Virus record (IMG/VR): IMGVR_UViG_3300032156_000001
Span: 1 to 64,000 of that record
DNA length: 64,000 nt
Source: a virus
Strand: one strand, 5' to 3'
The translations under genes and the position numbers were made by a program. Shown one piece after another: positions 35,457 through 45,265 of this stretch. The notes below the pieces were generated by a model. The model had not been told where the DNA came from. It searched no databases and worked only from the letters and a program-made list of their open reading frames with translations. Position 1 is the first letter of the stretch. Each line of letters opens with the position of its first letter.

Positions 35457-35492
35457 CTAAAAAACCCCTGTTTTTGCGCTATTATACTGTGG
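35457..35492 (+). promoter_or_regulatory. 36-bp promoter-like motif, copy 2
   Basis: 32/36 identical to 473-508. Confidence 0.7.
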
Positions 35493-35585
35493 TGTGGATT
35501 CGCTCCGCATCAAATGGTCCTTCCCAGCCGGCGCTCGGCGCCGATAGCCGGCTGCCGCCTGGAAGTGGGGGCGGGCGGTCTCGAA

Positions 35586-35617
35586 CCCCGGGCTCGAAAA
35601 GGGCCCGGGGTTTTCTT
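35586..35617 (+). terminator. terminator-like hairpin
   Basis: CCCCGGGCTC-GAAAA-GGGCCCGGGG plus TTTTCTT. Confidence 0.6.
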
Positions 35618-35618
35618 C

Positions 35619-35691
35619 GGACGGTGATGGTCACCCGCCTGGCGGCGAAAGCCCCCTGGCCGGCCGGGTTCGATTCCCGGTCCGTCCTCCA
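35619..35691 (+). ncRNA. tRNA-like element lacking a canonical D/anticodon arm
   Basis: GGACGG/CCGTCC acceptor-like stem, CCGGG-TTCGATT-CCCGG T-arm, ends T-CCA. Confidence 0.5.
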
Positions 35692-35693
35692 GC

Positions 35694-35875
35694 TGAGGGC
35701 GCCGGCAACGGCGTTCCTCGACCGTCGTGTGGCCTCAAGGGACCGATCCCCGATGCGCGGCGACCCCGCGCTGACACGACGTTAACCTGTCTGCTTGGCA
35801 AGCGGGTGGGTTTTCCAGGCCTTGCAGGGCCTGGTCGCTGGGGGAGCCTGGTGCTGCTACACCGGCTCCCTCGGC
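35694..35875 (+). ncRNA. cluster of GC-rich hairpins, putative structured RNA or leader
   Basis: GCAA tetraloop hairpin; CGTCGTGT/ACACGACG-closed 3-way junction; CCAGGCC/GGCCTGG and GGGAGCC/GGCTCCC stems. Confidence 0.4.
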
Positions 35876-35914
35876 ACTTTTTACCGCCGCTGCAACGGCG
35901 GGAGGAGGCAGCGC

Positions 35915-38509: not shown

Positions 38510-40102
38510 ATGAACCGGACGCTGTTCAAGGGGAAGGGGTCCAGGGGCGCGCCGCCGGCCGACACGGTCAACGCGGCGGGCGGCGTGGCGTACAAGATGA
38601 CCGACGAGCAGGCGCTGGCCCAGCTGGCCGTGACGGGCTGCCTGTCGGACGTCTTCTACGCCAACGCGGAGATGCAGCTCGAGCAGGTCCTGGAAGTGGC
38701 GGCGAAGGTGCCCGCGGACTACGAGGCGCGGGTGGCGCTGTACGCCTGGGAGAAGGGCTACATGAAGGACATGCCGGCCCTGCTCTTGGCGCACCTGATG
38801 CGGCGCGACGTCGCGATGGCGAAGCGGGTCTTCCCGCGGATCGTCGTGAATGGCAAGATGCTGCGCAACTTCGTCCAGGTCATCCGCAGCGGGGTGACCG
38901 GGCGGAAGTCGATGGCCACGGCGCCGTCGGCGCTCGTGTCGGCGTACCTGGCCAAGCGGACCCCGCTGGAGCTCCTCAGGGACTCGATCGGCGACAAGCC
39001 CGACTTGGCGGACATCATCAGGCTGGCGCATCCCAAGCCGCCGAACGCGCAGTACCGCGCGTTCTACGCCTGGGCGCTCGGCAAGAAGCTGGACGCCGAG
39101 CAGCAGTCGGCGCTCCCGGAGATCGTTGCGGCGTACGACAAGATGTGCAAGACGGGCGTCCTCGATCTGGACGTAGTCACCAAGCTGCCGATTCAGATGC
39201 TCGGCAGCCTCAAGATGACCGACGACGCCTGGAAGAGGACCGCGGTCAACCTTCCCTGGCACGCGCTGCGGATGAACCTCAACGCGCTGGCCAAGCACGG
39301 CGTCTGGCAGGACAAGGAAGTCCTGCTCCGCTGCTGCGACAAACTGCGGGACCTCGAGACGATCAGGAAGGCGCGGGTCTTCCCGTACCAGCTCCTGATC
39401 GCCTACAAGATGACCGGTACGGACGTCCCGAACGAGCTGAGGGAGGCGCTGCAGGACGCCATGGAAGTGGCCGTCGAGAACGTTCCCGAACTGCCCGGCA
39501 GGACGTGGGTGTTCGTGGACGTCTCAGGCTCGATGCGCTCGCCCGTCACGGGAATACGCAAGGGGGCGACCACCGCGGTCCAGTGCGTGGACGTGGCCGC
39601 GCTGATGGCGGCCGCCATCCTCCGCCGGAACCGGGACTCCAACGTGCTGGCGTTCAACGACTCGGTCGTCGAGGGCTCCGACCGGATTGTGAACCGCCGC
39701 GACTCCGTGATGACGATCGCGGAGAAGCTGGCGGGGCGGCCGTCCGGCGGGACGAACGTCAGCGCGCCCATGCGCCAGCTGGTCGACCGGAACGAGCCGG
39801 CCGACACGGTCGTGTACGTGTCGGACAACCAGTCCTGGATCGATACCGCTGCCCATCAGTACGGGATGCAGGAGGCGACGGAGACCAAGCACCTGTGGCA
39901 GACGCTGAAGAAGCGCCGCCCGAAGGCGCGGATGGTCTGCGTCGACTTGCAGCCGTACCCCGACGCGCAGGCGCCGTCGTGCGCCGACACGCTCAATGTC
40001 GGGGGCTTCTCCGACGCCGTGTTCGACCTCATCGCCCTGTTCGCCAAGGGCGAGCTCACTCCCGACCACTGGGTCGGCGAGATCAGGAAAGTCCAACTGT
40101 GA
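38510..40102 (+). CDS. rsr: Ro60/TROVE RNA-binding protein (Rsr homolog)
   Basis: NAAGGVAY, GYMKDMPALL, NGKMLRNFVQVIRSG, LPWHALRMNL, ARVFPYQLL, C-terminal vWA VDVSGSM/GGTN/SDNQ. Confidence 0.95.
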   Translation: MNRTLFKGKGSRGAPPADTVNAAGGVAYKMTDEQALAQLAVTGCLSDVFYANAEMQLEQVLEVAAKVPADYEARVALYAWEKGYMKDMPALLLAHLMRRDVAMAKRVFPRIVVNGKMLRNFVQVIRSGVTGRKSMATAPSALVSAYLAKRTPLELLRDSIGDKPDLADIIRLAHPKPPNAQYRAFYAWALGKKLDAEQQSALPEIVAAYDKMCKTGVLDLDVVTKLPIQMLGSLKMTDDAWKRTAVNLPWHALRMNLNALAKHGVWQDKEVLLRCCDKLRDLETIRKARVFPYQLLIAYKMTGTDVPNELREALQDAMEVAVENVPELPGRTWVFVDVSGSMRSPVTGIRKGATTAVQCVDVAALMAAAILRRNRDSNVLAFNDSVVEGSDRIVNRRDSVMTIAEKLAGRPSGGTNVSAPMRQLVDRNEPADTVVYVSDNQSWIDTAAHQYGMQEATETKHLWQTLKKRRPKARMVCVDLQPYPDAQAPSCADTLNVGGFSDAVFDLIALFAKGELTPDHWVGEIRKVQL

Positions 40103-40129
40103 CCACGTCGCTTGTGGGCGGCTCGCGTA

Positions 40130-40165
40130 CAGGGGCGGCAGCCACAACTGCCGCCCCTGCTTTTT
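40130..40165 (+). terminator. intrinsic terminator
   Basis: CAGGGGCGGCAG/CTGCCGCCCCTG plus TTTTT. Confidence 0.75.
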
Positions 40166-40202
40166 CCCGACTTCGCGGCAGCGACTCGCGGAAAGGGGTG
40201 AC

Positions 40203-40922
40203 ATGGAAGCGCAGTCGAAAGAGCAATTGGCGAGGGTGTTGGAAGAGTGGGCAAAGGCGTCGAGCGACGTCGAATGGTCGCGTCGGCAACTGCTTGTGAA
40301 GGAGGACAAGCTGAACAGTCTGTTGGCCGACGCTGTCAAGGCGATGGGCATCGGCGGTACGGAGCTGGCGAGTCTGGCTGGCGGTGAGGAAGCGACGGAT
40401 TGGGTGATGTTCGCCGGCGAGCTGGTTCCTGTGAGGACGGCCAGCGTCAACGGCGAGACGGCCCGCATAATGGACCTGACGGACATGGAACGGAGGGACC
40501 CGGAGAAGTTTGGGGCTGAAGCAGTGGGTCGATATCTGGAGAGCGGCATGCGGCCCGTGCCGGTGCCGATACCGGTATCGGCATCGCCGTTGACGGCGAA
40601 TCGGCTTGCTGCCGTCGGCGTGGCTCAGTCCGGCAAGGCGCTCAGCATAAACGCCATCGCACGCCAAGTGGGGAAGGACCTCGGGATACCGATGCCGGTT
40701 TCAGACAAGAGCGCGACTGCCAGCTCGCACGGCAAGCAGGCGAAGTTCACGCCGGCGGATAGGGCAGCCATCGACGCGCTCTATTTCCACAGGGATACCA
40801 TCCAGGAAGTAGCGCGGAGGTACAAGGCTGACGAGGCAGCGGCGTCTCGTTGGCTGGCCGGCATAGAAATGAAGCAAAGGGCCGCGGTTGAGAAGATCAG
40901 AAAGGAGTTGGGATGCCACTAG
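40203..40922 (+). CDS. hypothetical protein with C-terminal sigma region-4-like HTH
   Basis: TPADRAAIDALYFHRDTIQEVARRYKADEAAASRWL...EKIRKEL. Confidence 0.5.
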   Translation: MEAQSKEQLARVLEEWAKASSDVEWSRRQLLVKEDKLNSLLADAVKAMGIGGTELASLAGGEEATDWVMFAGELVPVRTASVNGETARIMDLTDMERRDPEKFGAEAVGRYLESGMRPVPVPIPVSASPLTANRLAAVGVAQSGKALSINAIARQVGKDLGIPMPVSDKSATASSHGKQAKFTPADRAAIDALYFHRDTIQEVARRYKADEAAASRWLAGIEMKQRAAVEKIRKELGCH

Positions 40923-41308
40923 TTCTGAATGCGCCCTTCAGGGGGCGGCCGGTAGACCAAAACGCCGTGAAAGAACTGGAAACCGCGCAGTACCGGCGGG
41001 AGATGAAGGTTGCGGCAGCGGCCATGCAGCCGTTGCCGGAGGACGTCGTCCTGGCGGTCGGATTGACCTTCGTGTACGAACTCACGCCGGGATACCTCAT
41101 CCGAAGGCATCGGATATCCAACGCGCCGCCGCGCATCCTCGCGTGGCTCGCGCAAGTGGGGTTCCAGCCCGGTCGCGGGATCGTCGGCGGATCGTCCGGC
41201 CACGGGTCCGGCGGCGGTTCGGCCGGCCACGGAAGCGGAGGCCATTCGCCTGGCTGCGGAAGCGGCGCTCGGGCACTGAAACGGCGGCGGTTCGGCTCGT
41301 CGCGGTAG
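40913..41308 (+). CDS. hypothetical protein with Gly/Ser/His-rich tail
   Basis: 131-aa ORF. Confidence 0.5.
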   Translation: MPLVLNAPFRGRPVDQNAVKELETAQYRREMKVAAAAMQPLPEDVVLAVGLTFVYELTPGYLIRRHRISNAPPRILAWLAQVGFQPGRGIVGGSSGHGSGGGSAGHGSGGHSPGCGSGARALKRRRFGSSR

Positions 41309-41374
41309 GACGAAACATTCGTAGTTGACGGGGATGTTCGGTTGCAGTATCAGATAGGCTTGTGTGGAACTCGA

Positions 41375-41543
41375 GGTGAATGCGCGAGGGACTACATTTC
41401 GATGAGAAGGGGCCGGAGGCCCCACAGTGCCCGACGGAGCGCGCCGGTTCGCGGCGTCGGGGTTGTGCCACCGGACCTGGCCTTTGCGGATCCAGCGGTA
41501 ACGCGGGGCCTTGTAATGCTCGTCTCTCGCATGTGTCATCACC
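41375..41543 (+). ncRNA. Y RNA-like element A (long variant)
   Basis: GGTGA(A)TG/CATCACC terminal helix, GCGAGGGAC/GTCTCTCGC second helix, GACTAC motif shared with copies B-E. Confidence 0.65.
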
Positions 41544-41554
41544 CCGCTGTTTTA

Positions 41555-41685
41555 CGGCACGAATGCCTGGAGGGGACTACCTATCGGAGGAGGAGATGCA
41601 GGTGCGACTCCTGCCCGCCGGTCTCGATCCGGCGGTAGCTCAACAGCAGAGCGCCTAAAAAGTCTCTTCCGACTTCATCGTGCCG
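41555..41685 (+). ncRNA. yrlA: YrlA-type Y RNA (tRNA mimic), element B
   Basis: CGGCACGA(A)TG/CATCGTGCCG bulged helix; T-arm GCAGG-TGCGACT-CCTGC; loop-closed acceptor-like stem CCGCCGG/CCGGCGG; D-arm TAGCTCAACAGCAGAGC; followed by T8. Confidence 0.85.
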
Positions 41686-41757
41686 CCTTTTTTTTCGCTT
41701 GCTGTTGGCAGGGCGGAGCCGGGCCGGCGCCATGATGGCGCGCCGGCTCCGCAACAT

Positions 41758-42122
41758 GGGGGCGATCATAGAATCGACCCGACGTGAATGGGAGGAGTCG
41801 CGCGCCGAGGTGGCTCGGAGGCCTCGTTAAACACCGGGCAATGCAAACGTGCCAAGAACGACAAGTTCGTTCGCGGGGGCTTCGGCCTCCGCGCTGCTGC
41901 CTAATCGAACAGCGGCTAACCCCGCTCGCGCGCCCGGCCCGGGCGCGCGGGAAGATGACGGGCTGCCGCCCAGCAAGCTGGGCTAGGTCGGTGTACAACC
42001 GATGGAGTCGTGGGAAGCGACACGAGAGGCTTGCCGGTGGGCCGGACACAGACCATCGGACACGCGCGTAGAGGCTCGACCTGAAGCGGACGGGGACCCG
42101 AGTGCGAGTCTCGGCGCCTCCA
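41758..42122 (+). ncRNA. ssrA: tmRNA (one-piece)
   Basis: GGGGGCG/CGCCTCC acceptor with G3-U70 and discriminator A; 5' GAATCGAC and GCGCGCCGAGG; 3' GGAC-CCGAG-TGCGAGT-CTCGG T-arm; 365 nt; tag ORF present. Confidence 0.92.
41851..41904 (+). other. tmRNA tag reading frame (A)AKNDKFVRGGFGLRAAA*; resume codon inferred
   Basis: GCC AAG AAC GAC...GCT GCT GCC TAA; ND near the start and AA at the end, as in known tags. Confidence 0.8.
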
Positions 42123-42149
42123 CAAATTTGTGCAGAATCGTAGGTGAAC

Positions 42150-42211
42150 GGCTCGAATGCCGAGGGGGACTACACTTGAAATGTAAAGTCTCCCTCGATT
42201 TTCATCGAGCC
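42150..42211 (+). ncRNA. minimal Y RNA-like element C
   Basis: GGCTCGA(A)TG/CATCGAGCC; GAGGGGGAC/GTCTCCCTC; TACA-CTTGAAA-TGTA. Confidence 0.75.
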
Positions 42212-42220
42212 TCCAACCTT

Positions 42221-42279
42221 TGACCCGAATGCCGTCCGGACTACATGGAAATGATGTCCGGCCACCTTTCATCGGGTCA
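42221..42279 (+). ncRNA. minimal Y RNA-like element D
   Basis: TGACCCGA(A)TG/CATCGGGTCA; CCGGAC/GTCCGG; CAT-GGAA-ATG. Confidence 0.75.
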
Positions 42280-42297
42280 CCATTTCGCTAGCGTGAC

Positions 42298-42358
42298 GGC
42301 TCGAATGCCGGGATGACTACATTGCCTAAATGAACGTCATCCCAATTCTCATCGAGCC
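42298..42358 (+). ncRNA. minimal Y RNA-like element E
   Basis: GGCTCGA(A)TG/CATCGAGCC; GGGATGAC/GTCATCCC; CATT-GCCTA-AATG. Confidence 0.75.
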
Positions 42359-42374
42359 ACCTTTGCGAGTCAGC

Positions 42375-42400
42375 GGGCGGCTTCGGCCGCCCTTGTCTTT
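42375..42400 (+). terminator. terminator closing the RNA cluster
   Basis: GGGCGGC-TTCG-GCCGCCC plus TTGTCTTT. Confidence 0.75.
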
Positions 42401-42720
42401 GGGCGCCCCGCCTACCCGGCCCGTAGCCGGGATTGCAGGCGGGGTTTCGTTGTGGGGGGGACTTGGAAGGCCGGTGGTCTCAGGCGCTGCAGAAAGGAGG
42501 GCCTGTATGCAGCCTAACGCCAGAACCTTTCATGCCACAACACTGCCCGCTTTGGCGAGGAAGGACCACCGATCGCTTCCGGGGTGCGGGATCCCCGGGC
42601 CGTGAAGGCGTGCGGCTGTACGGCGCGGCTCGGCGTATCCGGGTCGGCCGTGCGGCCGGTTTTTAGGTATGGGGCGGGCGAAAGCCTAGGCCCCGCCCCA
42701 CAGAGAAGGAGCCAGTGACA

Positions 42721-42948
42721 ATGTCCATTACCGTCAGGGTCGGCCCCATGGTGAAGGTGTTCGACCAGTTGGCGAACAAGACCGTCATGCAGATCCGACG
42801 CGACCTCGCGGGCCACATGGCCATCCCCGAGGCCTCTCGGGCGACGGTCAACAACGTGGACGTGAGCGAGGACCAGGTCGTCCAGGACTTCCAGACGATC
42901 GAGTTCGTGGTCCAGTCGGGTTCCAAGGGGACCGATTCGGTAGCGTAG
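42721..42948 (+). CDS. ubiquitin-like (beta-grasp) protein with short C-terminal extension
   Basis: 75 aa; ATVNNVDVSEDQVVQDFQTIEFV-SGSKG then TDSVA; adjacent to E2/JAB/E1. Confidence 0.75.
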   Translation: MSITVRVGPMVKVFDQLANKTVMQIRRDLAGHMAIPEASRATVNNVDVSEDQVVQDFQTIEFVVQSGSKGTDSVA

Positions 42949-43038
42949 CGCAAGGGCCGAAGTAGAAGCCTGTCAGGCCCGCCGCAAGCTACCGGGCCCG
43001 CTTCGGCGGGCCTGACAATTCGATAAAGGAATGAAGGA

Positions 43039-43758
43039 ATGGCGAACACGCCTTCTGCGACCAGGAGACAGATCCGCATAGAGGGAAACCTCGTGGCGGT
43101 GGAGAACGTCCAGGTCGAGCGCTATGTCGGAGTCGACGACTTCATCGACTGCATGACGAAGCGCCGGCCGGTGGCCAGCCCCATACTGCCCAGGAACTGC
43201 GTCCTGTACGCGAACAACACGGCGGACACGTTCCGCCAGCTGTTCGTCATCCAGGAGCCTGCCGGCATACGGCGGATAAGGTACAAGCACGACCGGGCCA
43301 GCGGCCCCGGCGAGGGGATCAACATAGAGGTGTCCATGCCCATGCTGCTGTGGTTCTTCACGTGCACGGACATGTCGCTGGCGTCGCTGAGGTGCGCCGC
43401 CGTGCGGCGCGACCTGTCGGCCGTGGCCGATCCGATGGCCACGCCGCTCCTGAACCCACTGCTGCCGAACTTCCGCGATAACGGCACTGGCGTCATGTGC
43501 ACCGGGCGCATGACGGTCGGCCAGCAGCCGACCCTGGCCAAGACGGTGGACGCGCTGATGCGCGCGATCTGGGATTCCGAGTGGAACCTGGACCTCGGCA
43601 TCGACTACGCGAACACCGGCCTGGGCGACATGCGCGACTGGGCGCACAAGAGCACCGGTCAGCCGGGCTTCCACGAGCGGATCGCGTTTCCGCCGTACGA
43701 GCCCAATCAGCTGGGCGGGATGGTGCGGCGCGCGCTGGCGCAGCGGGACGGTGACTAG
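43039..43758 (+). CDS. prokaryotic E2-like protein (Prok-E2 D / PRTRC B-like)
   Basis: MPMLLWF...LLPNFRDNGTGVMCTG (candidate catalytic Cys)...WDSEWNLDL. Confidence 0.7.
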   Translation: MANTPSATRRQIRIEGNLVAVENVQVERYVGVDDFIDCMTKRRPVASPILPRNCVLYANNTADTFRQLFVIQEPAGIRRIRYKHDRASGPGEGINIEVSMPMLLWFFTCTDMSLASLRCAAVRRDLSAVADPMATPLLNPLLPNFRDNGTGVMCTGRMTVGQQPTLAKTVDALMRAIWDSEWNLDLGIDYANTGLGDMRDWAHKSTGQPGFHERIAFPPYEPNQLGGMVRRALAQRDGD

Positions 43759-44120
43759 TGCTGCGCACCAGGGGCGAGCTGCTTACTTTCATCGGCGCCA
43801 AGGAGGACATGCGCCGGAGAGACGAAGCCAAAGCCGAGGCGAAGGCCGGGAATGAGCGGCCGAAGACCGACATATTCGCCGCCCTGGCGCGCGTGCCGCC
43901 CGTGCCGATAACCTCGCTGGAAGGGATAGCCGAGTTCGCGCTCGTCGTGCCCGACCCGGAGACGCTGGCCGAGATGCCGGGCACGCCGGCGCAGGTGCTG
44001 GTGTCGCAGTTCGTGTTCTACGCGAGGAAGTCGTTCCAGCTCGCGGAGGCGATGCGCCGCGACGCCGGCCAGTTCGAGCTGATACGCGCCGCGACGATGC
44101 GCCTGGAGGAGAGACGGTGA
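43758..44120 (+). CDS. hypothetical protein in the Ubl operon
   Basis: Translationally coupled to both neighbours. Confidence 0.55.
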   Translation: MLRTRGELLTFIGAKEDMRRRDEAKAEAKAGNERPKTDIFAALARVPPVPITSLEGIAEFALVVPDPETLAEMPGTPAQVLVSQFVFYARKSFQLAEAMRRDAGQFELIRAATMRLEERR

Positions 44121-45265
44121 GCGTTCCGATAAAGATCTATGTGATGGAGGAAGGGATGAAGATGCCGGACGACGACCTCTGCTACCTGGTCGGCGCCAAC
44201 GGCATCTTCAAGAGGACGCGATGCCCGCTGTTCGAGATCGTGATCAAGGTGTCGGAGATACCCGGCTTGGCCAACCTGGGTACGTTGGTCAGGCCGACGG
44301 TCGTGAAGATCCCCGAGCCGCTGCTGCGGCAGGTGGAATCGTTCTTCAAGGCCGTGTACGAGAAGCACAAAGCCGAAGCCGTAGTCCTGGTGCTGTACAA
44401 CGAGAAGGAGAAGGCGTGGAAGCTGCTCATACCCGACCAGGAGGTCATGTGCGGCCACGCCGACTACGACCTGAAGAAGGTGGCCATCGAATCCGGCCAC
44501 GTGCTGTTCGGTTCGATGCACAGCCACGGCAGCATGTCGGCCTTCCATTCCGGGACCGACGACAAGGATGAGTGCAAGTTCGACGGCATCCATATCACCA
44601 TCGGCGCGGTTGACGGCACGACGCTCAGCTACGCCGTGCGGTGGTCGATGGCCGGCATGCTCATCAAGGCCGACCTGGAGGACGTCGTCGACCTGCCGAA
44701 GCCGCTCAAGGTGCCGTGCGAGGAGTCGTGGCTGGACCGCGTCAAGACGAGAGGGGCCGCGCAGATCGGGTATCTGGCCCGGCCTGCCGGCCAGGACTTT
44801 CAACGGTGGAGGGAGGACTACGGCGAAGGATGGTCGGAAGAAGCGGCGGCACAGGCACCGGCGTCGCCGGCAGCGTTACCAACCGGGACCGTTACTGTAG
44901 ACCCGCAGGGCGCGGTGAAGGAGGTTTCCGCGGGCCCTTTCGCGGATGGCAAGGCCCTCTTCCAGGCGCGCGATACCGGAGACTCCTCGAATGAGCGGAA
45001 GTTCCCGCTCGCCCCGACGCGGCGCGTGCTGGATCCCAAGCTCCTGGCCGGCGAGCTGCTCGGCCTGGCGGAAGAGGAGAAGGCATATTGGGCCCTGACC
45101 GACGAGGTTCTTGAGGGGCCGCAGGGCTTTGCCACGTCGGAGGACTACCTCACCTATCTGGCCGATTGGCAGGATTATTTGGAGAGCGTGATCGTCACGG
45201 CGCAGGACATGGTCGATTACGAATCCGTCCAATACGCGCGCGCCGGCGCGGGCAAGGGGGGCTGA
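44117..45265 (+). CDS. JAB/MPN metalloprotease (PRTRC A-like) with acidic C-terminal extension
   Basis: KAEAVV (Glu)...GSMHSHGSMSAFHSGTDDKDE. Confidence 0.85.
   Translation: MSVPIKIYVMEEGMKMPDDDLCYLVGANGIFKRTRCPLFEIVIKVSEIPGLANLGTLVRPTVVKIPEPLLRQVESFFKAVYEKHKAEAVVLVLYNEKEKAWKLLIPDQEVMCGHADYDLKKVAIESGHVLFGSMHSHGSMSAFHSGTDDKDECKFDGIHITIGAVDGTTLSYAVRWSMAGMLIKADLEDVVDLPKPLKVPCEESWLDRVKTRGAAQIGYLARPAGQDFQRWREDYGEGWSEEAAAQAPASPAALPTGTVTVDPQGAVKEVSAGPFADGKALFQARDTGDSSNERKFPLAPTRRVLDPKLLAGELLGLAEEEKAYWALTDEVLEGPQGFATSEDYLTYLADWQDYLESVIVTAQDMVDYESVQYARAGAGKGG

What the first reader, a model, noticed from the sequence alone, without database searches (positions are those of the whole stretch)
38510..42400. 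Phage Ro60 with an array of five co-varying Y RNA-like genes bracketing a tmRNA
Seen: after the Ro60 gene, five elements (41375-41543, 41555-41685, 42150-42211, 42221-42279, 42298-42358) share GAATGC...GACTAC...GTC...TCATC. Their flanking helices differ in sequence yet keep pairing, which is compensatory variation. Each has a terminal helix with one bulged A after (C/T)GA, an asymmetric internal loop (U-rich on the 3' side in most copies) and a second helix ending GAC/GTC. Only the apical domain differs. Established: bacterial Ro60 (Rsr) binds Y RNAs through a bulged terminal helix, YrlA RNAs carry a tRNA-like module, and Ro60/Y RNA/tmRNA are known individually from some phages. Inference: a modular Ro60 adaptor set, one protein with five interchangeable RNAs that could tether or decoy different host enzymes. 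I am not aware of a described five-member array of this kind.
Basis: partly seen in the sequence, partly recalled or inferred. Interest (0 to 1): 0.9.

Follow-up and report, generated by a model that had tools for sequence, protein, structure and literature searches.

The report
Phage Ro60 with five Y RNAs
An uncultured 188-kb phage encodes the ring-shaped RNA-binding protein Ro60 followed by five small partner RNA (Y RNA) genes flanking a tmRNA gene; the locus is real, but arrays like it turn out to be common beside related Ro60 genes in phages and bacteria, so it is a good new example, not a singular oddity.

Summary
Ro60 (38510-40102) has TROVE and vWA domains. The tmRNA (41758-42125) scores 76 bits in Rfam. 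Five elements lie at exactly the stated coordinates and share one "handle": stem 1 ending YGA/UCR, a bulged A, UG/CA, an internal loop, and stem 2 ending GAC/GUC followed by UAC.

A covariance model built only from elements of other phages finds these five and nothing else in 64 kb (E 5e-16 to 5e-5). Nine of 19 handle pairs show compensatory changes among the five copies, and 19 of 19 do across 74 distinct related sequences. E2 is a YrlA-type tRNA mimic. E3-E5 are minimal YrlB-like hairpins. E1 has the handle plus a 127-nt insert with no support for structure or homology.

The claim of uniqueness falls. Related phage loci carry up to 9 such elements, often alternating with tRNAs. Eighty cellular Ro60 loci hold 335, all on the Ro60 strand. 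Cultured Myxococcus phage Mx1 has at least 2, one of them largely overlapped by a hypothetical-protein CDS annotation. This scan has also noted similar arrays on other DNA.

Expression, Ro60 binding and partner enzymes remain untested. The phage encodes no detectable PNPase, RtcB, Rnl2-type ligase, SmpB or CCA-adding enzyme. I file it as a new member of the known Ro60/Y RNA kind, of moderate interest.

The parts
38510..40102 (+). Ro60/Rsr gene (530 aa; TROVE ring plus vWA domain with the MIDAS motif DVSGS...T...D)
   Evidence: Pfam vWA_Ro60 7.3e-16 and TROVE 2.5e-5. PHROG 850 2.7e-41. PDB 2nvo Rsr 3.8e-15 over residues 20-516, and phage phiLo Ro60 9kop/9l5y 7e-13. A GGAGGAG ribosome-binding site lies upstream.
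40130..40159 (+). Terminator-like hairpin followed by CTTTTT, directly after Ro60
   Evidence: 12 pairs, 10 of them G-C.
40203..41308 (+). Two overlapping ORFs of unknown function (239 aa and 131 aa) between Ro60 and the RNA genes. They are context only.
   Evidence: No Pfam or PHROG match. No tblastn match in 33 related phage Ro60 loci.
41375..41543 (+). E1: Y RNA-like handle (GGUGA-A-UG-C-GCGAGGGAC ... GUCUCUCGC-AUGUG-CA-UCACC) enclosing a 127-nt G+C-rich insert of unknown nature
   Evidence: R2 24.3 bits, E 5.3e-5. Descriptor stem 1 = 5 bp and stem 2 = 9 bp. The insert has no homologue and no folding signal, z = +0.29. No Rfam match.
41555..41685 (+). E2: YrlA-type Y RNA. It has the handle plus a tRNA-like module (T-arm GCAGG-UGCGACU-CCUGC, a closed acceptor-like stem, a D-arm), followed by T8 at 41689-41696.
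   Evidence: Rfam YrlA 39.5 bits, E 6.9e-7, model positions 1-114. R2 30.1 bits. RNAfold z = -3.68. T-arm and D-arm motifs found.
41713..41752 (+). G+C-rich inverted repeat between E2's U-tract and the tmRNA. Its role is unknown (a processing or termination signal is possible).
   Evidence: Read directly from the sequence. ARAGORN extends its tmRNA call into it (41715).
41758..42125 (+). tmRNA with a G3:U70 acceptor stem, the tag AKNDKFVRGGFGLRAAA and T-loop UGCGAGU. No 3' CCA is encoded.
   Evidence: Rfam RF00023 76.3 bits, gathering score 47. ARAGORN. T-arm.
42150..42211 (+). E3: minimal Y RNA-like hairpin (7-bp stem 1, bulged A, UG/CA, 10-11-bp stem 2, 17-nt apex)
   Evidence: R2 59.4 bits. 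Rfam YrlB 25.4 bits, E 0.019. RNAfold z = -5.69.
42221..42279 (+). E4: minimal Y RNA-like hairpin (apex CAU-GGAA-AUG)
   Evidence: R2 40.0 bits, E 6e-10. RNAfold z = -3.19.
42298..42358 (+). E5: minimal Y RNA-like hairpin (apex CAUU-GCCUA-AAUG)
   Evidence: R2 46.6 bits. Rfam YrlB 23.7 bits, E 0.058. RNAfold z = -4.71.
42375..42402 (+). Intrinsic-terminator-like hairpin GGGCGGC-UUCG-GCCGCCC followed by UUGUCUUU, closing the RNA gene cluster

Best explanation
This is a phage copy of the Ro60/Y RNA ribonucleoprotein system. It consists of one Ro60 (Rsr-type) ring protein and five paralogous Y RNA genes, laid out in an RNA-gene cluster together with a tmRNA.

Shown: the five RNAs share a conserved, covarying handle that matches the Ro60-binding stem of YrlA and YrlB. 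The handle consists of a terminal helix ending YGA/UCR, a bulged A, UG/CA, a pyrimidine-rich asymmetric loop, and a second helix capped by GAC-UAC. The RNAs differ only in the apical module. E2 has a tRNA-like fold, E3-E5 have tiny hairpins, and E1 has a large unexplained insert.

Inferred:
- The cluster is transcribed rightward as one or two precursors, bounded by the U8 tract after E2 and the terminator after E5.
- The precursors are cut up by host tRNA/tmRNA-processing nucleases and trimmed back to the Ro60-protected stem.
- Each RNA docks by its handle, mainly the invariant 5' strand YGAAUGC, on the outer face of the phage Ro60 ring.
- The tRNA-like E2 recruits a host enzyme. PNPase is the precedent in D. 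radiodurans, Salmonella and Thermus phage phiLo.
- The minimal E3-E5 act chiefly as gates or stabilisers that occupy the ring.
- The net effect is to redirect host RNA decay or RNA quality control during infection.

The phage itself supplies no detectable PNPase, RtcB, Rnl2-type ligase, SmpB or CCA-adding enzyme, so any partners would have to come from the host.
For: Protein: Pfam, PHROG and PDB matches cover the whole length and the MIDAS motif is conserved.

RNA in the window: a model built from other phages' elements finds exactly the five, all on the Ro60 strand. Compensatory changes occur among the five copies.

RNA across relatives: across 74 distinct related sequences, 93.2% of cells are paired and 19 of 19 pairs change on both sides. 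The covariation score is 0.773, against 0.193 for shuffles and 0.07-0.15 for slid partners.

Homology to known Y RNAs: E2 aligns to the full YrlA model with T-arm and D-arm, and E3 and E5 align to YrlB. Long elements of relatives hit YrlA at 37-61 bits.

Association with Ro60:
- All 77 hits in related phage Ro60 loci lie on the Ro60 strand.
- All of the 300 listed hits, out of 335 in 80 cellular loci, lie on the Ro60 strand.
- My descriptor finds 225 hits on the Ro60 strand against 1 on the opposite strand.

Processing: in L030 the elements alternate with tRNA genes at spacings of 0-3 nt. In Mx1 one element starts 3 nt after tRNA-Ile. This fits release by tRNA-processing enzymes.

Literature: Y RNAs lie within 4 kb of rsr on the same strand. 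The 5' strand motif CGAA is the candidate Ro60 contact. Every species tested has at least 2 Y RNAs, one of them tRNA-like (PMC4201824; bioRxiv 10.1101/312249). Phage phiLo Ro60 binds two phage Y RNA-like molecules and forms a complex with host PNPase (PMC12135203).
Against: There is no evidence of expression or binding for this locus.

All Rfam Y RNA matches fall below the curated gathering scores: YrlA 39.5 against 69, YrlB about 25 against 97.

The published motif GNCGAAN0-1G is only partly met. The first G is missing in E2-E5, and the C is a U in E1.

No sigma-70-like promoter was found upstream of E1 or the tmRNA.

E1's insert has no structural or comparative support, so E1 could be a decayed or atypical copy.

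E3 and E5 have identical terminal stems. This fits simple duplication for dosage better than distinct adaptor roles.

R2 descends from a model seeded with E3 and its alignments are fitted to the structure, which inflates the pairing statistics somewhat.
Confidence: 0.78

Rival explanations
1. They are genuine Y RNA genes, but the multiplicity only provides dosage and redundancy. E3-E5, and perhaps all five, do the same job (occupying or gating Ro60). The apical differences are neutral drift after tandem duplication, not distinct adaptor functions.
For: E3 and E5 share an identical stem 1 and 5' strand, and E3-E5 share one minimal architecture with only 9-18-nt spacers. Short forms of 57-72 nt recur in several copies per locus in relatives. 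The apices of the short forms show no conserved sequence beyond UACA.
Against: Within one locus the copies fall into clearly different classes: tRNA-like, minimal, and large-insert. Relatives keep the same mix of short and long (125-160 nt, T-arm-bearing) forms. That pattern argues for maintained diversity.
Confidence: 0.3
2. The handle RNAs act independently of Ro60. For example, they could be processing punctuation, decoys, or substrates for host tRNA-modifying or tRNA-cleaving enzymes within tRNA/tmRNA operons. Their linkage to Ro60 would then reflect a shared RNA island rather than direct binding.
For: In several relatives the elements sit inside tRNA arrays and abut tRNAs. In Mx1 they lie about 11 kb from Ro60. 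No binding data exist for this locus.
Against: The elements were found by anchoring on Ro60 and lie on its strand in phages and bacteria alike, including loci without tRNAs such as L007, L020 and L006. The conserved part corresponds to the stem of YrlA and YrlB, RNAs that immunoprecipitate with Rsr in Salmonella and M. smegmatis (PMC4201824).
Confidence: 0.08
3. They are not RNA genes at all, but repeated hairpins such as terminators, REP-like repeats or recombination sites flanking the tmRNA.
For: They are stable hairpins in an ORF-poor stretch. E2 is followed by a U8 tract.
Against: Unpaired nucleotides are conserved (bulged A, UG/CA, UAC). Both helices show compensatory changes. The elements are strand-specific: 225 against 1. 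They are homologous to YrlA and YrlB. Only one of the five precedes a U-tract.
Confidence: 0.03

Closest known systems
Bacterial Rsr with YrlA and YrlB (Salmonella Typhimurium, Mycobacterium smegmatis; Rfam RF02553 and RF02565; Chen et al. 2014, PMC4201824)
   Same: A TROVE plus vWA protein. Y RNAs lie within a few kb on the same strand. There is a CGAAUG-type 5' strand in a bulged terminal helix. One RNA has a tRNA-like T-arm/D-arm module (E2), alongside hairpin-type RNAs without it (E3-E5).
   Different: There are five genes here rather than the two characterised. The scores fall below Rfam's gathering thresholds. The 3' strand reads UCAUCG, giving Watson-Crick UG/CA, instead of UUGUCG. The T-loop is UGCGA rather than UUCGA. 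There is no rtcB/rtcA neighbour. The genes are encoded by a phage.
Thermus phage phiLo Ro60 with Yrl1 and Yrl2 (PMC12135203; PDB 9KOP, 9L5Y)
   Same: A phage-encoded Ro60 with phage-encoded Y RNA-like partners identified by a CGAA motif next to the gene. No phage PNPase is present, so host PNPase is the proposed partner.
   Different: Two RNAs lie upstream of the gene there. Here five lie downstream, around a tmRNA. The protein match is weak: E 7e-13 over residues 19-442. The two phages infer different hosts and have different genome sizes.
Mycobacteriophage (Bxz1/ET08-type) Ro60 with YrlA, tRNAs and tmRNA (Pedulla et al. 2003 and Chen et al. 2014, as cited in PMC4201824; the gene content of these phages is from my own knowledge)
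   Same: A large phage carrying Ro60, a YrlA-type RNA and a tmRNA.
   Different: About 24% protein identity. The literature I could read does not report arrays of five with minimal hairpin members for these phages. They carry many tRNAs, whereas this phage has none.
D. radiodurans Rsr/Yrn1/PNPase (RYPER) and the metazoan Y RNA families (four in human)
   Same: This is the functional model. A Ro60-binding stem is combined with a variable effector module, and several Y RNA paralogues serve one Ro60.
   Different: Yrn1 and the metazoan Y RNAs belong to a different sequence lineage from YrlA. No homology was tested here beyond the protein match to 2nvo.

Membership tests
Ro60/Rsr (TROVE + vWA) | TROVE (HEAT-repeat ring) domain | tested here: met
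   Pfam PF05731 scores 24.1 bits against a cut-off of 23, which is marginal. A full-length phmmer alignment to Rsr 2nvo (residues 20-516 against 28-534, E 3.8e-15) and PHROG 850 over residues 17-516 support it.
Ro60/Rsr (TROVE + vWA) | C-terminal Ro60-type vWA domain with a MIDAS motif | tested here: met
   PF25045 vWA_Ro60 scores 59 bits against a cut-off of 27.7. DVSGS, GGT and SDN align with the corresponding MIDAS positions of 2nvo.
Ro60/Rsr (TROVE + vWA) | Binds Y RNA on the outer surface of the ring | not testable with these tools
   This needs EMSA or co-immunoprecipitation.
YrlA (Rfam RF02553) | Score at or above the curated gathering threshold (69 bits) | tested here: not met
   E2 scores 39.5 bits, E 6.9e-7, over model positions 1-114. 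Relatives' long elements score 37-61 bits, also below threshold.
YrlA (Rfam RF02553) | tRNA-like module (T-arm, closed acceptor-like stem, D-arm) inside the Ro-binding stem | tested here: met
   This holds for E2 only. The T-arm GCAGG/UGCGACU/CCUGC, the stem CCGCCGG...CCGGCGG and the D-arm GCUCAACAGCAGAGC align to the model. E1 and E3-E5 lack the module.
YrlA/YrlB-type Y RNA (Chen et al. 2014 criteria) | 5' motif GNCGAAN0-1G | tested here: inconclusive
   All five copies have YGAAUG. E2-E5 read CNCGAAUG, so the first G is absent. E1 reads GGUGAAUG, with C changed to U and compensated by UCA on the 3' strand.
YrlA/YrlB-type Y RNA (Chen et al. 2014 criteria) | Encoded within 4 kb of Ro60 on the same strand | tested here: met
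   The elements lie 1.27-2.26 kb downstream of the Ro60 stop codon on the + strand.
YrlB (Rfam RF02565) | Score at or above the gathering threshold (97 bits) | tested here: not met
   E3 scores 25.4 bits and E5 23.7 bits. E4 has no hit. Searches with Salmonella YrlB found orthologues only in other S. enterica serovars, so the Rfam model is probably narrow.
Y RNA (functional class) | Stable accumulation that depends on Ro60, and co-purification with Ro60 | not testable with these tools
   No RNA data set is available for this locus.
tmRNA (Rfam RF00023) | Gathering score, tRNA-like domain with G3:U70, and a tag reading frame | tested here: met
   76.3 bits against 47. ARAGORN finds the tag peptide. 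The acceptor stem GGGGGCG/CGCCUCC with G3:U was read.

The most novel reading that the evidence does not exclude
The array is a true modular adaptor set. One phage Ro60 ring is loaded in turn with five handle-bearing RNAs whose different apical modules recruit or decoy different host factors. E2's tRNA mimic would engage PNPase or tRNA enzymes, E1's 127-nt domain would engage an unknown partner, and the minimal E3-E5 would act as gates. The same 'handle plus interchangeable cargo' arrays of 4-9 genes would form a general, so far under-described layer of Ro60 biology in both large phages and bacteria, used by phages to reprogram host RNA decay or evade RNA-targeting defence.
Probability: 0.22. 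Interest if true: 0.72.

Novelty: new member of a known kind. Interest (0 to 1): 0.45.

Why it matters
Ro60/Y RNA particles have been studied in only a few bacteria and one phage. The papers I could read characterise two Y RNAs per organism and say that hairpin-type Y RNAs "eluded bioinformatic discovery".

This locus, and the model built while checking it, show that the short YrlB-like class can be found by its handle. They also show that Ro60 genes of this clade usually come with arrays rather than pairs. The counts are 335 elements in 80 cellular loci and up to 9 per phage locus.

That gives specialists a much larger comparative set for defining the Ro60-binding determinants. It also offers a cultured entry point: Myxococcus phage Mx1 carries at least two unannotated homologues.

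For the phage itself, the locus suggests that it manipulates host RNA turnover. It brings Ro60, Y RNAs and a tmRNA, while I found no PNPase, RtcB, Rnl2-type ligase, SmpB or CCA-adding enzyme in its genome.

Tried and rejected
- **MAFFT seed alignment.** Aligning E3-E5 with MAFFT shifted stem 2 by one column. I seeded the model from E3 alone instead.
- **Model R1.** R1, built from E3 only, missed E1 and E2 and also hit E3's own reverse strand. R2 replaced it.
- **Expression.** No RNA holder is listed. Only two sediment-metagenome DNA runs hold the stretch, and one may be the source sample.
- **Promoters.** The sigma-70 scan found none in 40000-42700. The candidate TTGACG-17-TATCAG at 41325-41353 is my own reading and fails the tool's criteria. 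It is also not repeated elsewhere in the window.
- **Phage-encoded partner enzymes.** RtcB, SmpB, CCA-adding/PolyA_pol, RNase PH/PNPase core and Rnl2-type RNA ligase were all absent from the 188-kb record, which is estimated to be about 90% complete.
- **Intervening ORFs.** The ORFs at 40203-40922 and 40913-41308 have no family and no counterpart in relatives' Ro60 loci. I dropped them as candidate partners.
- **Link to the ubiquitin-like operon.** None of the proteins of the adjacent operon (42715-46760) occurs within 6 kb of Ro60 in 33 related phage loci. I treat the adjacency as idiosyncratic.
- **E1 insert.** It has no Rfam hit, no BLAST homologue in the loci or the genome, and no folding signal.
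- **Literature.** I found no paper describing Y RNA arrays of five or more in phages or bacteria. The two Wolin-lab reviews (PMC10870794, PMC6047535) and the supplementary tables of Chen et al. 2014 are not held. I therefore cannot exclude that multiplicity is tabulated there.

Full report
**What the window is.** The window is the first 64 kb of a 188,118-bp IMG/VR virus record. The record is estimated to be about 90% complete, has 65% G+C and holds no tRNA genes, only one tmRNA. By Ro60 similarity, the nearest named relative is Myxococcus phage Mx1 at 46% amino-acid identity. The DNA occurs in sediment metagenomes.

**Check of the observation.**
- The ORF 38510-40102 encodes a 530-aa protein. 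It matches Pfam vWA_Ro60 (59 bits) and TROVE (24.1 bits) and PHROG 850.
- It aligns end to end with D. radiodurans Rsr (2nvo, E 3.8e-15). It also matches human and Xenopus Ro60 and the Thermus phage phiLo Ro60 structures.
- The MIDAS residues of the vWA domain align with those of 2nvo.
- A terminator-like hairpin follows the gene at 40130-40159.
- The tmRNA at 41758-42125 scores 76.3 bits against Rfam's threshold of 47 and has a tag frame.
- Each has a 5-8-bp terminal helix ending YGA/UCR, one bulged A, a 2-bp UG/CA step, a one- or two-nucleotide 5' bulge opposite a 5-8-nt mostly pyrimidine-rich 3' loop, and a 6-11-bp second helix that always ends GAC/GUC followed by UAC.
- E2-E5 fold far better than shuffled sequence (z = -3.2 to -5.7). 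E1 does not (z = -0.27).

**Is it more than chance?**
- I built model R1 from E3 alone and used it to collect 17 elements from other phages' Ro60 loci. From those 17 alone I built model R2.
- With filters off, R2 finds the five elements in the window and nothing else of note. The scores run from 59.4 to 24.3 bits (E 4.7e-16 to 5.3e-5), and the next hit scores 13.8 bits with E 0.11.
- Among the five copies, 94.6% of pair cells are standard pairs and 9 of 19 pairs change on both sides. The covariation score of 0.489 is reached by none of 500 shuffles and is about five times that of slid partners.
- Across 77 hits (74 distinct) from 20 loci, 93.2% of cells are paired and all 19 pairs show double changes. 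The score is 0.773, against 0.193 for shuffles and 0.07-0.15 for slid partners.
- These alignments are fitted to the model, so the figures are somewhat flattering. An independent hand-written descriptor, however, finds 225 matches on the Ro60 strand and 1 on the opposite strand in 80 bacterial loci.

**What the elements are.**
- In a permissive Rfam scan, E2 aligns over the whole YrlA model (39.5 bits, E 7e-7). The match includes the T-arm, the closed acceptor-like stem and the D-arm. E3 and E5 align weakly to YrlB.
- All of these scores are below Rfam's gathering thresholds, so formal Rfam membership is not met.
- The consensus handle of the phage family (gGgCcGAAUGCcG..GGAcUACAU...gUCUcc..CCUUGUCgGcCc) is nevertheless nearly the same as the YrlA stem consensus shown.
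- The literature places Y RNAs within 4 kb of rsr on the same strand. It identifies the CGAA-containing 5' strand as the likely Ro60 contact. It finds at least two Y RNAs in every species tested, one tRNA-like and one a long hairpin (PMC4201824; bioRxiv 10.1101/312249).
- The window fits this picture. E2 is the tRNA mimic and E3-E5 are hairpin types.
- E1 has a good handle, but its 127-nt, 69% G+C insert has no homologue, no Rfam match and no folding signal. I count it as a probable but atypical member.

**How unusual is a five-member array?** It is not unusual in nature.
- In 34 distinct related phage loci, R2 finds 72 elements besides the window's five, all on the Ro60 strand. L013 has 9, L030 has 8, L007 and L020 have 6 each, L006 has 5, and L005 and L023 have 4 each. 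Each array mixes short (57-72 nt) and long (125-160 nt, often T-arm-bearing) forms.
- In L030 the elements alternate with tRNA genes at spacings of 0-3 nt.
- Mx1 has at least two such elements inside its tRNA island. One begins 3 nt after tRNA-Ile and is largely covered by an annotated hypothetical CDS.
- Cellular Ro60 genes are about 50% identical to the phage protein. They come from Acidobacteriota, Verrucomicrobiota, Myxococcota, Rhizobiaceae and others.
- These 80 cellular loci carry 335 R2 hits, and all 300 listed are on the Ro60 strand. Complete chromosomes are included: 7 hits in L095, 5 in L085 and 5 in L115.
- Earlier notes of this scan also record arrays of four to seven handle RNAs beside Ro60-like genes in other phages. 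I did not re-test those notes.
- The placement of a tmRNA in the middle of the array is particular to this phage. ARAGORN found no tmRNA in any of the 34 related phage loci scanned, and only a sub-threshold permuted tmRNA turned up in L013.

**Mechanism.**
- Shown: a Ro60 gene; five RNAs with a conserved, covarying, strand-specific handle homologous to the YrlA/YrlB stem; variable apical modules; terminator-like signals after Ro60, after E2 (U8) and after E5.
- Inferred from family knowledge: the RNAs are cut from precursors and bind Ro60 through the handle. The tRNA-like module recruits a host effector. PNPase is the precedent in D. radiodurans and Salmonella and in phage phiLo. Minimal forms gate or stabilise the ring.
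- The phage encodes no detectable RtcB, PNPase/RNase PH core, Rnl2-type ligase, SmpB or CCA-adding enzyme. Both the Ro60 particle and the tmRNA would therefore have to work with host proteins.
- Whether the five RNAs have distinct partners or mainly add dosage cannot be decided here. E3 and E5 share identical terminal stems, which favours duplication. The maintained mix of classes in many loci favours diversity.

**Novelty and score.**
- Phage Ro60 with Y RNAs is established: 22 phages in Chen et al. 2014, and phiLo with two Yrls.
- What I could not find described is the size of the arrays and the wide distribution of the minimal hairpin class. The key reviews and supplementary tables were not available to me.
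- I therefore file the locus as a new member of a known kind, of moderate interest. The comparative result, that arrays are the rule for this Ro60 clade, is the most useful by-product.

Noticed in passing
L050-L129 (cellular Ro60 loci), e.g. L095, L085, L115, L053, L110: Bacterial Ro60 genes about 50% identical to the phage protein are flanked by arrays of the same handle-type Y RNA-like elements. There are 335 hits in 80 loci, up to 8 per locus, on the Ro60 strand. This far exceeds the two Y RNAs characterised per species in the literature I could read.
   Followed up: partly
window 41597-41613 (E2 T-arm) and 42098-42114 (tmRNA T-arm): Both tRNA mimics of this phage have the T-loop UGCGA, with G at the position of tRNA U55, instead of UUCGA. 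Among T-arms of related phage Y elements, 16 of 18 are UUCRA. This is either a shared adaptation (for example no pseudouridine-55, or an altered D-loop contact) or a sign of common origin. It remains unexplained.
   Followed up: partly
window 35471-35900 and 487-508: The 22-nt promoter-like motif TTTTTGCG(C/T)TATTATACTGTGG occurs twice. Behind the copy at 35471 lies about 400 nt without a credible ORF. It contains a terminator-like hairpin and a 74-nt tRNA-like minihelix with a canonical GGTTCGATTCC T-arm and an encoded CCA (about 35619-35692), but no anticodon arm. ARAGORN and Rfam do not call it.
   Followed up: no
L049 (Myxococcus phage Mx1, OR576727.2) record positions 45169-45294 and 45521-45624: Two Y RNA-like elements sit in the tRNA island of cultured phage Mx1, about 11 kb upstream of its Ro60. 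Most of the second is covered by a CDS annotated 'hypothetical protein' (45524-45646).
   Followed up: partly
window 42715-46760: A ubiquitin-like/E2/JAB/E1 operon, reported separately by this scan, begins about 300 nt after the Y RNA terminator. None of its proteins is found within 6 kb of Ro60 in 33 related phage loci, so the adjacency is not conserved.
   Followed up: partly
whole genome G000 (188 kb): The phage carries a tmRNA but no tRNA gene and no SmpB. Its relatives' Ro60 loci are often packed with tRNAs: 35 in L030, 27 in L011 and 16 in Mx1 locus L001.
   Followed up: partly
L013 3626-4083; L030 4200-4268 and 5745-5807: A sub-threshold permuted tmRNA match (40 bits, gathering score 47) lies 2 kb upstream of Ro60 in L013. 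In L030 some Y elements enclose a sequence that scores as a whole tRNA.
   Followed up: no
window 41713-41752: A long G+C-rich inverted repeat lies between E2's U8 tract and the tmRNA 5' end. ARAGORN draws it into its tmRNA call. It may be a processing or termination signal.
   Followed up: no
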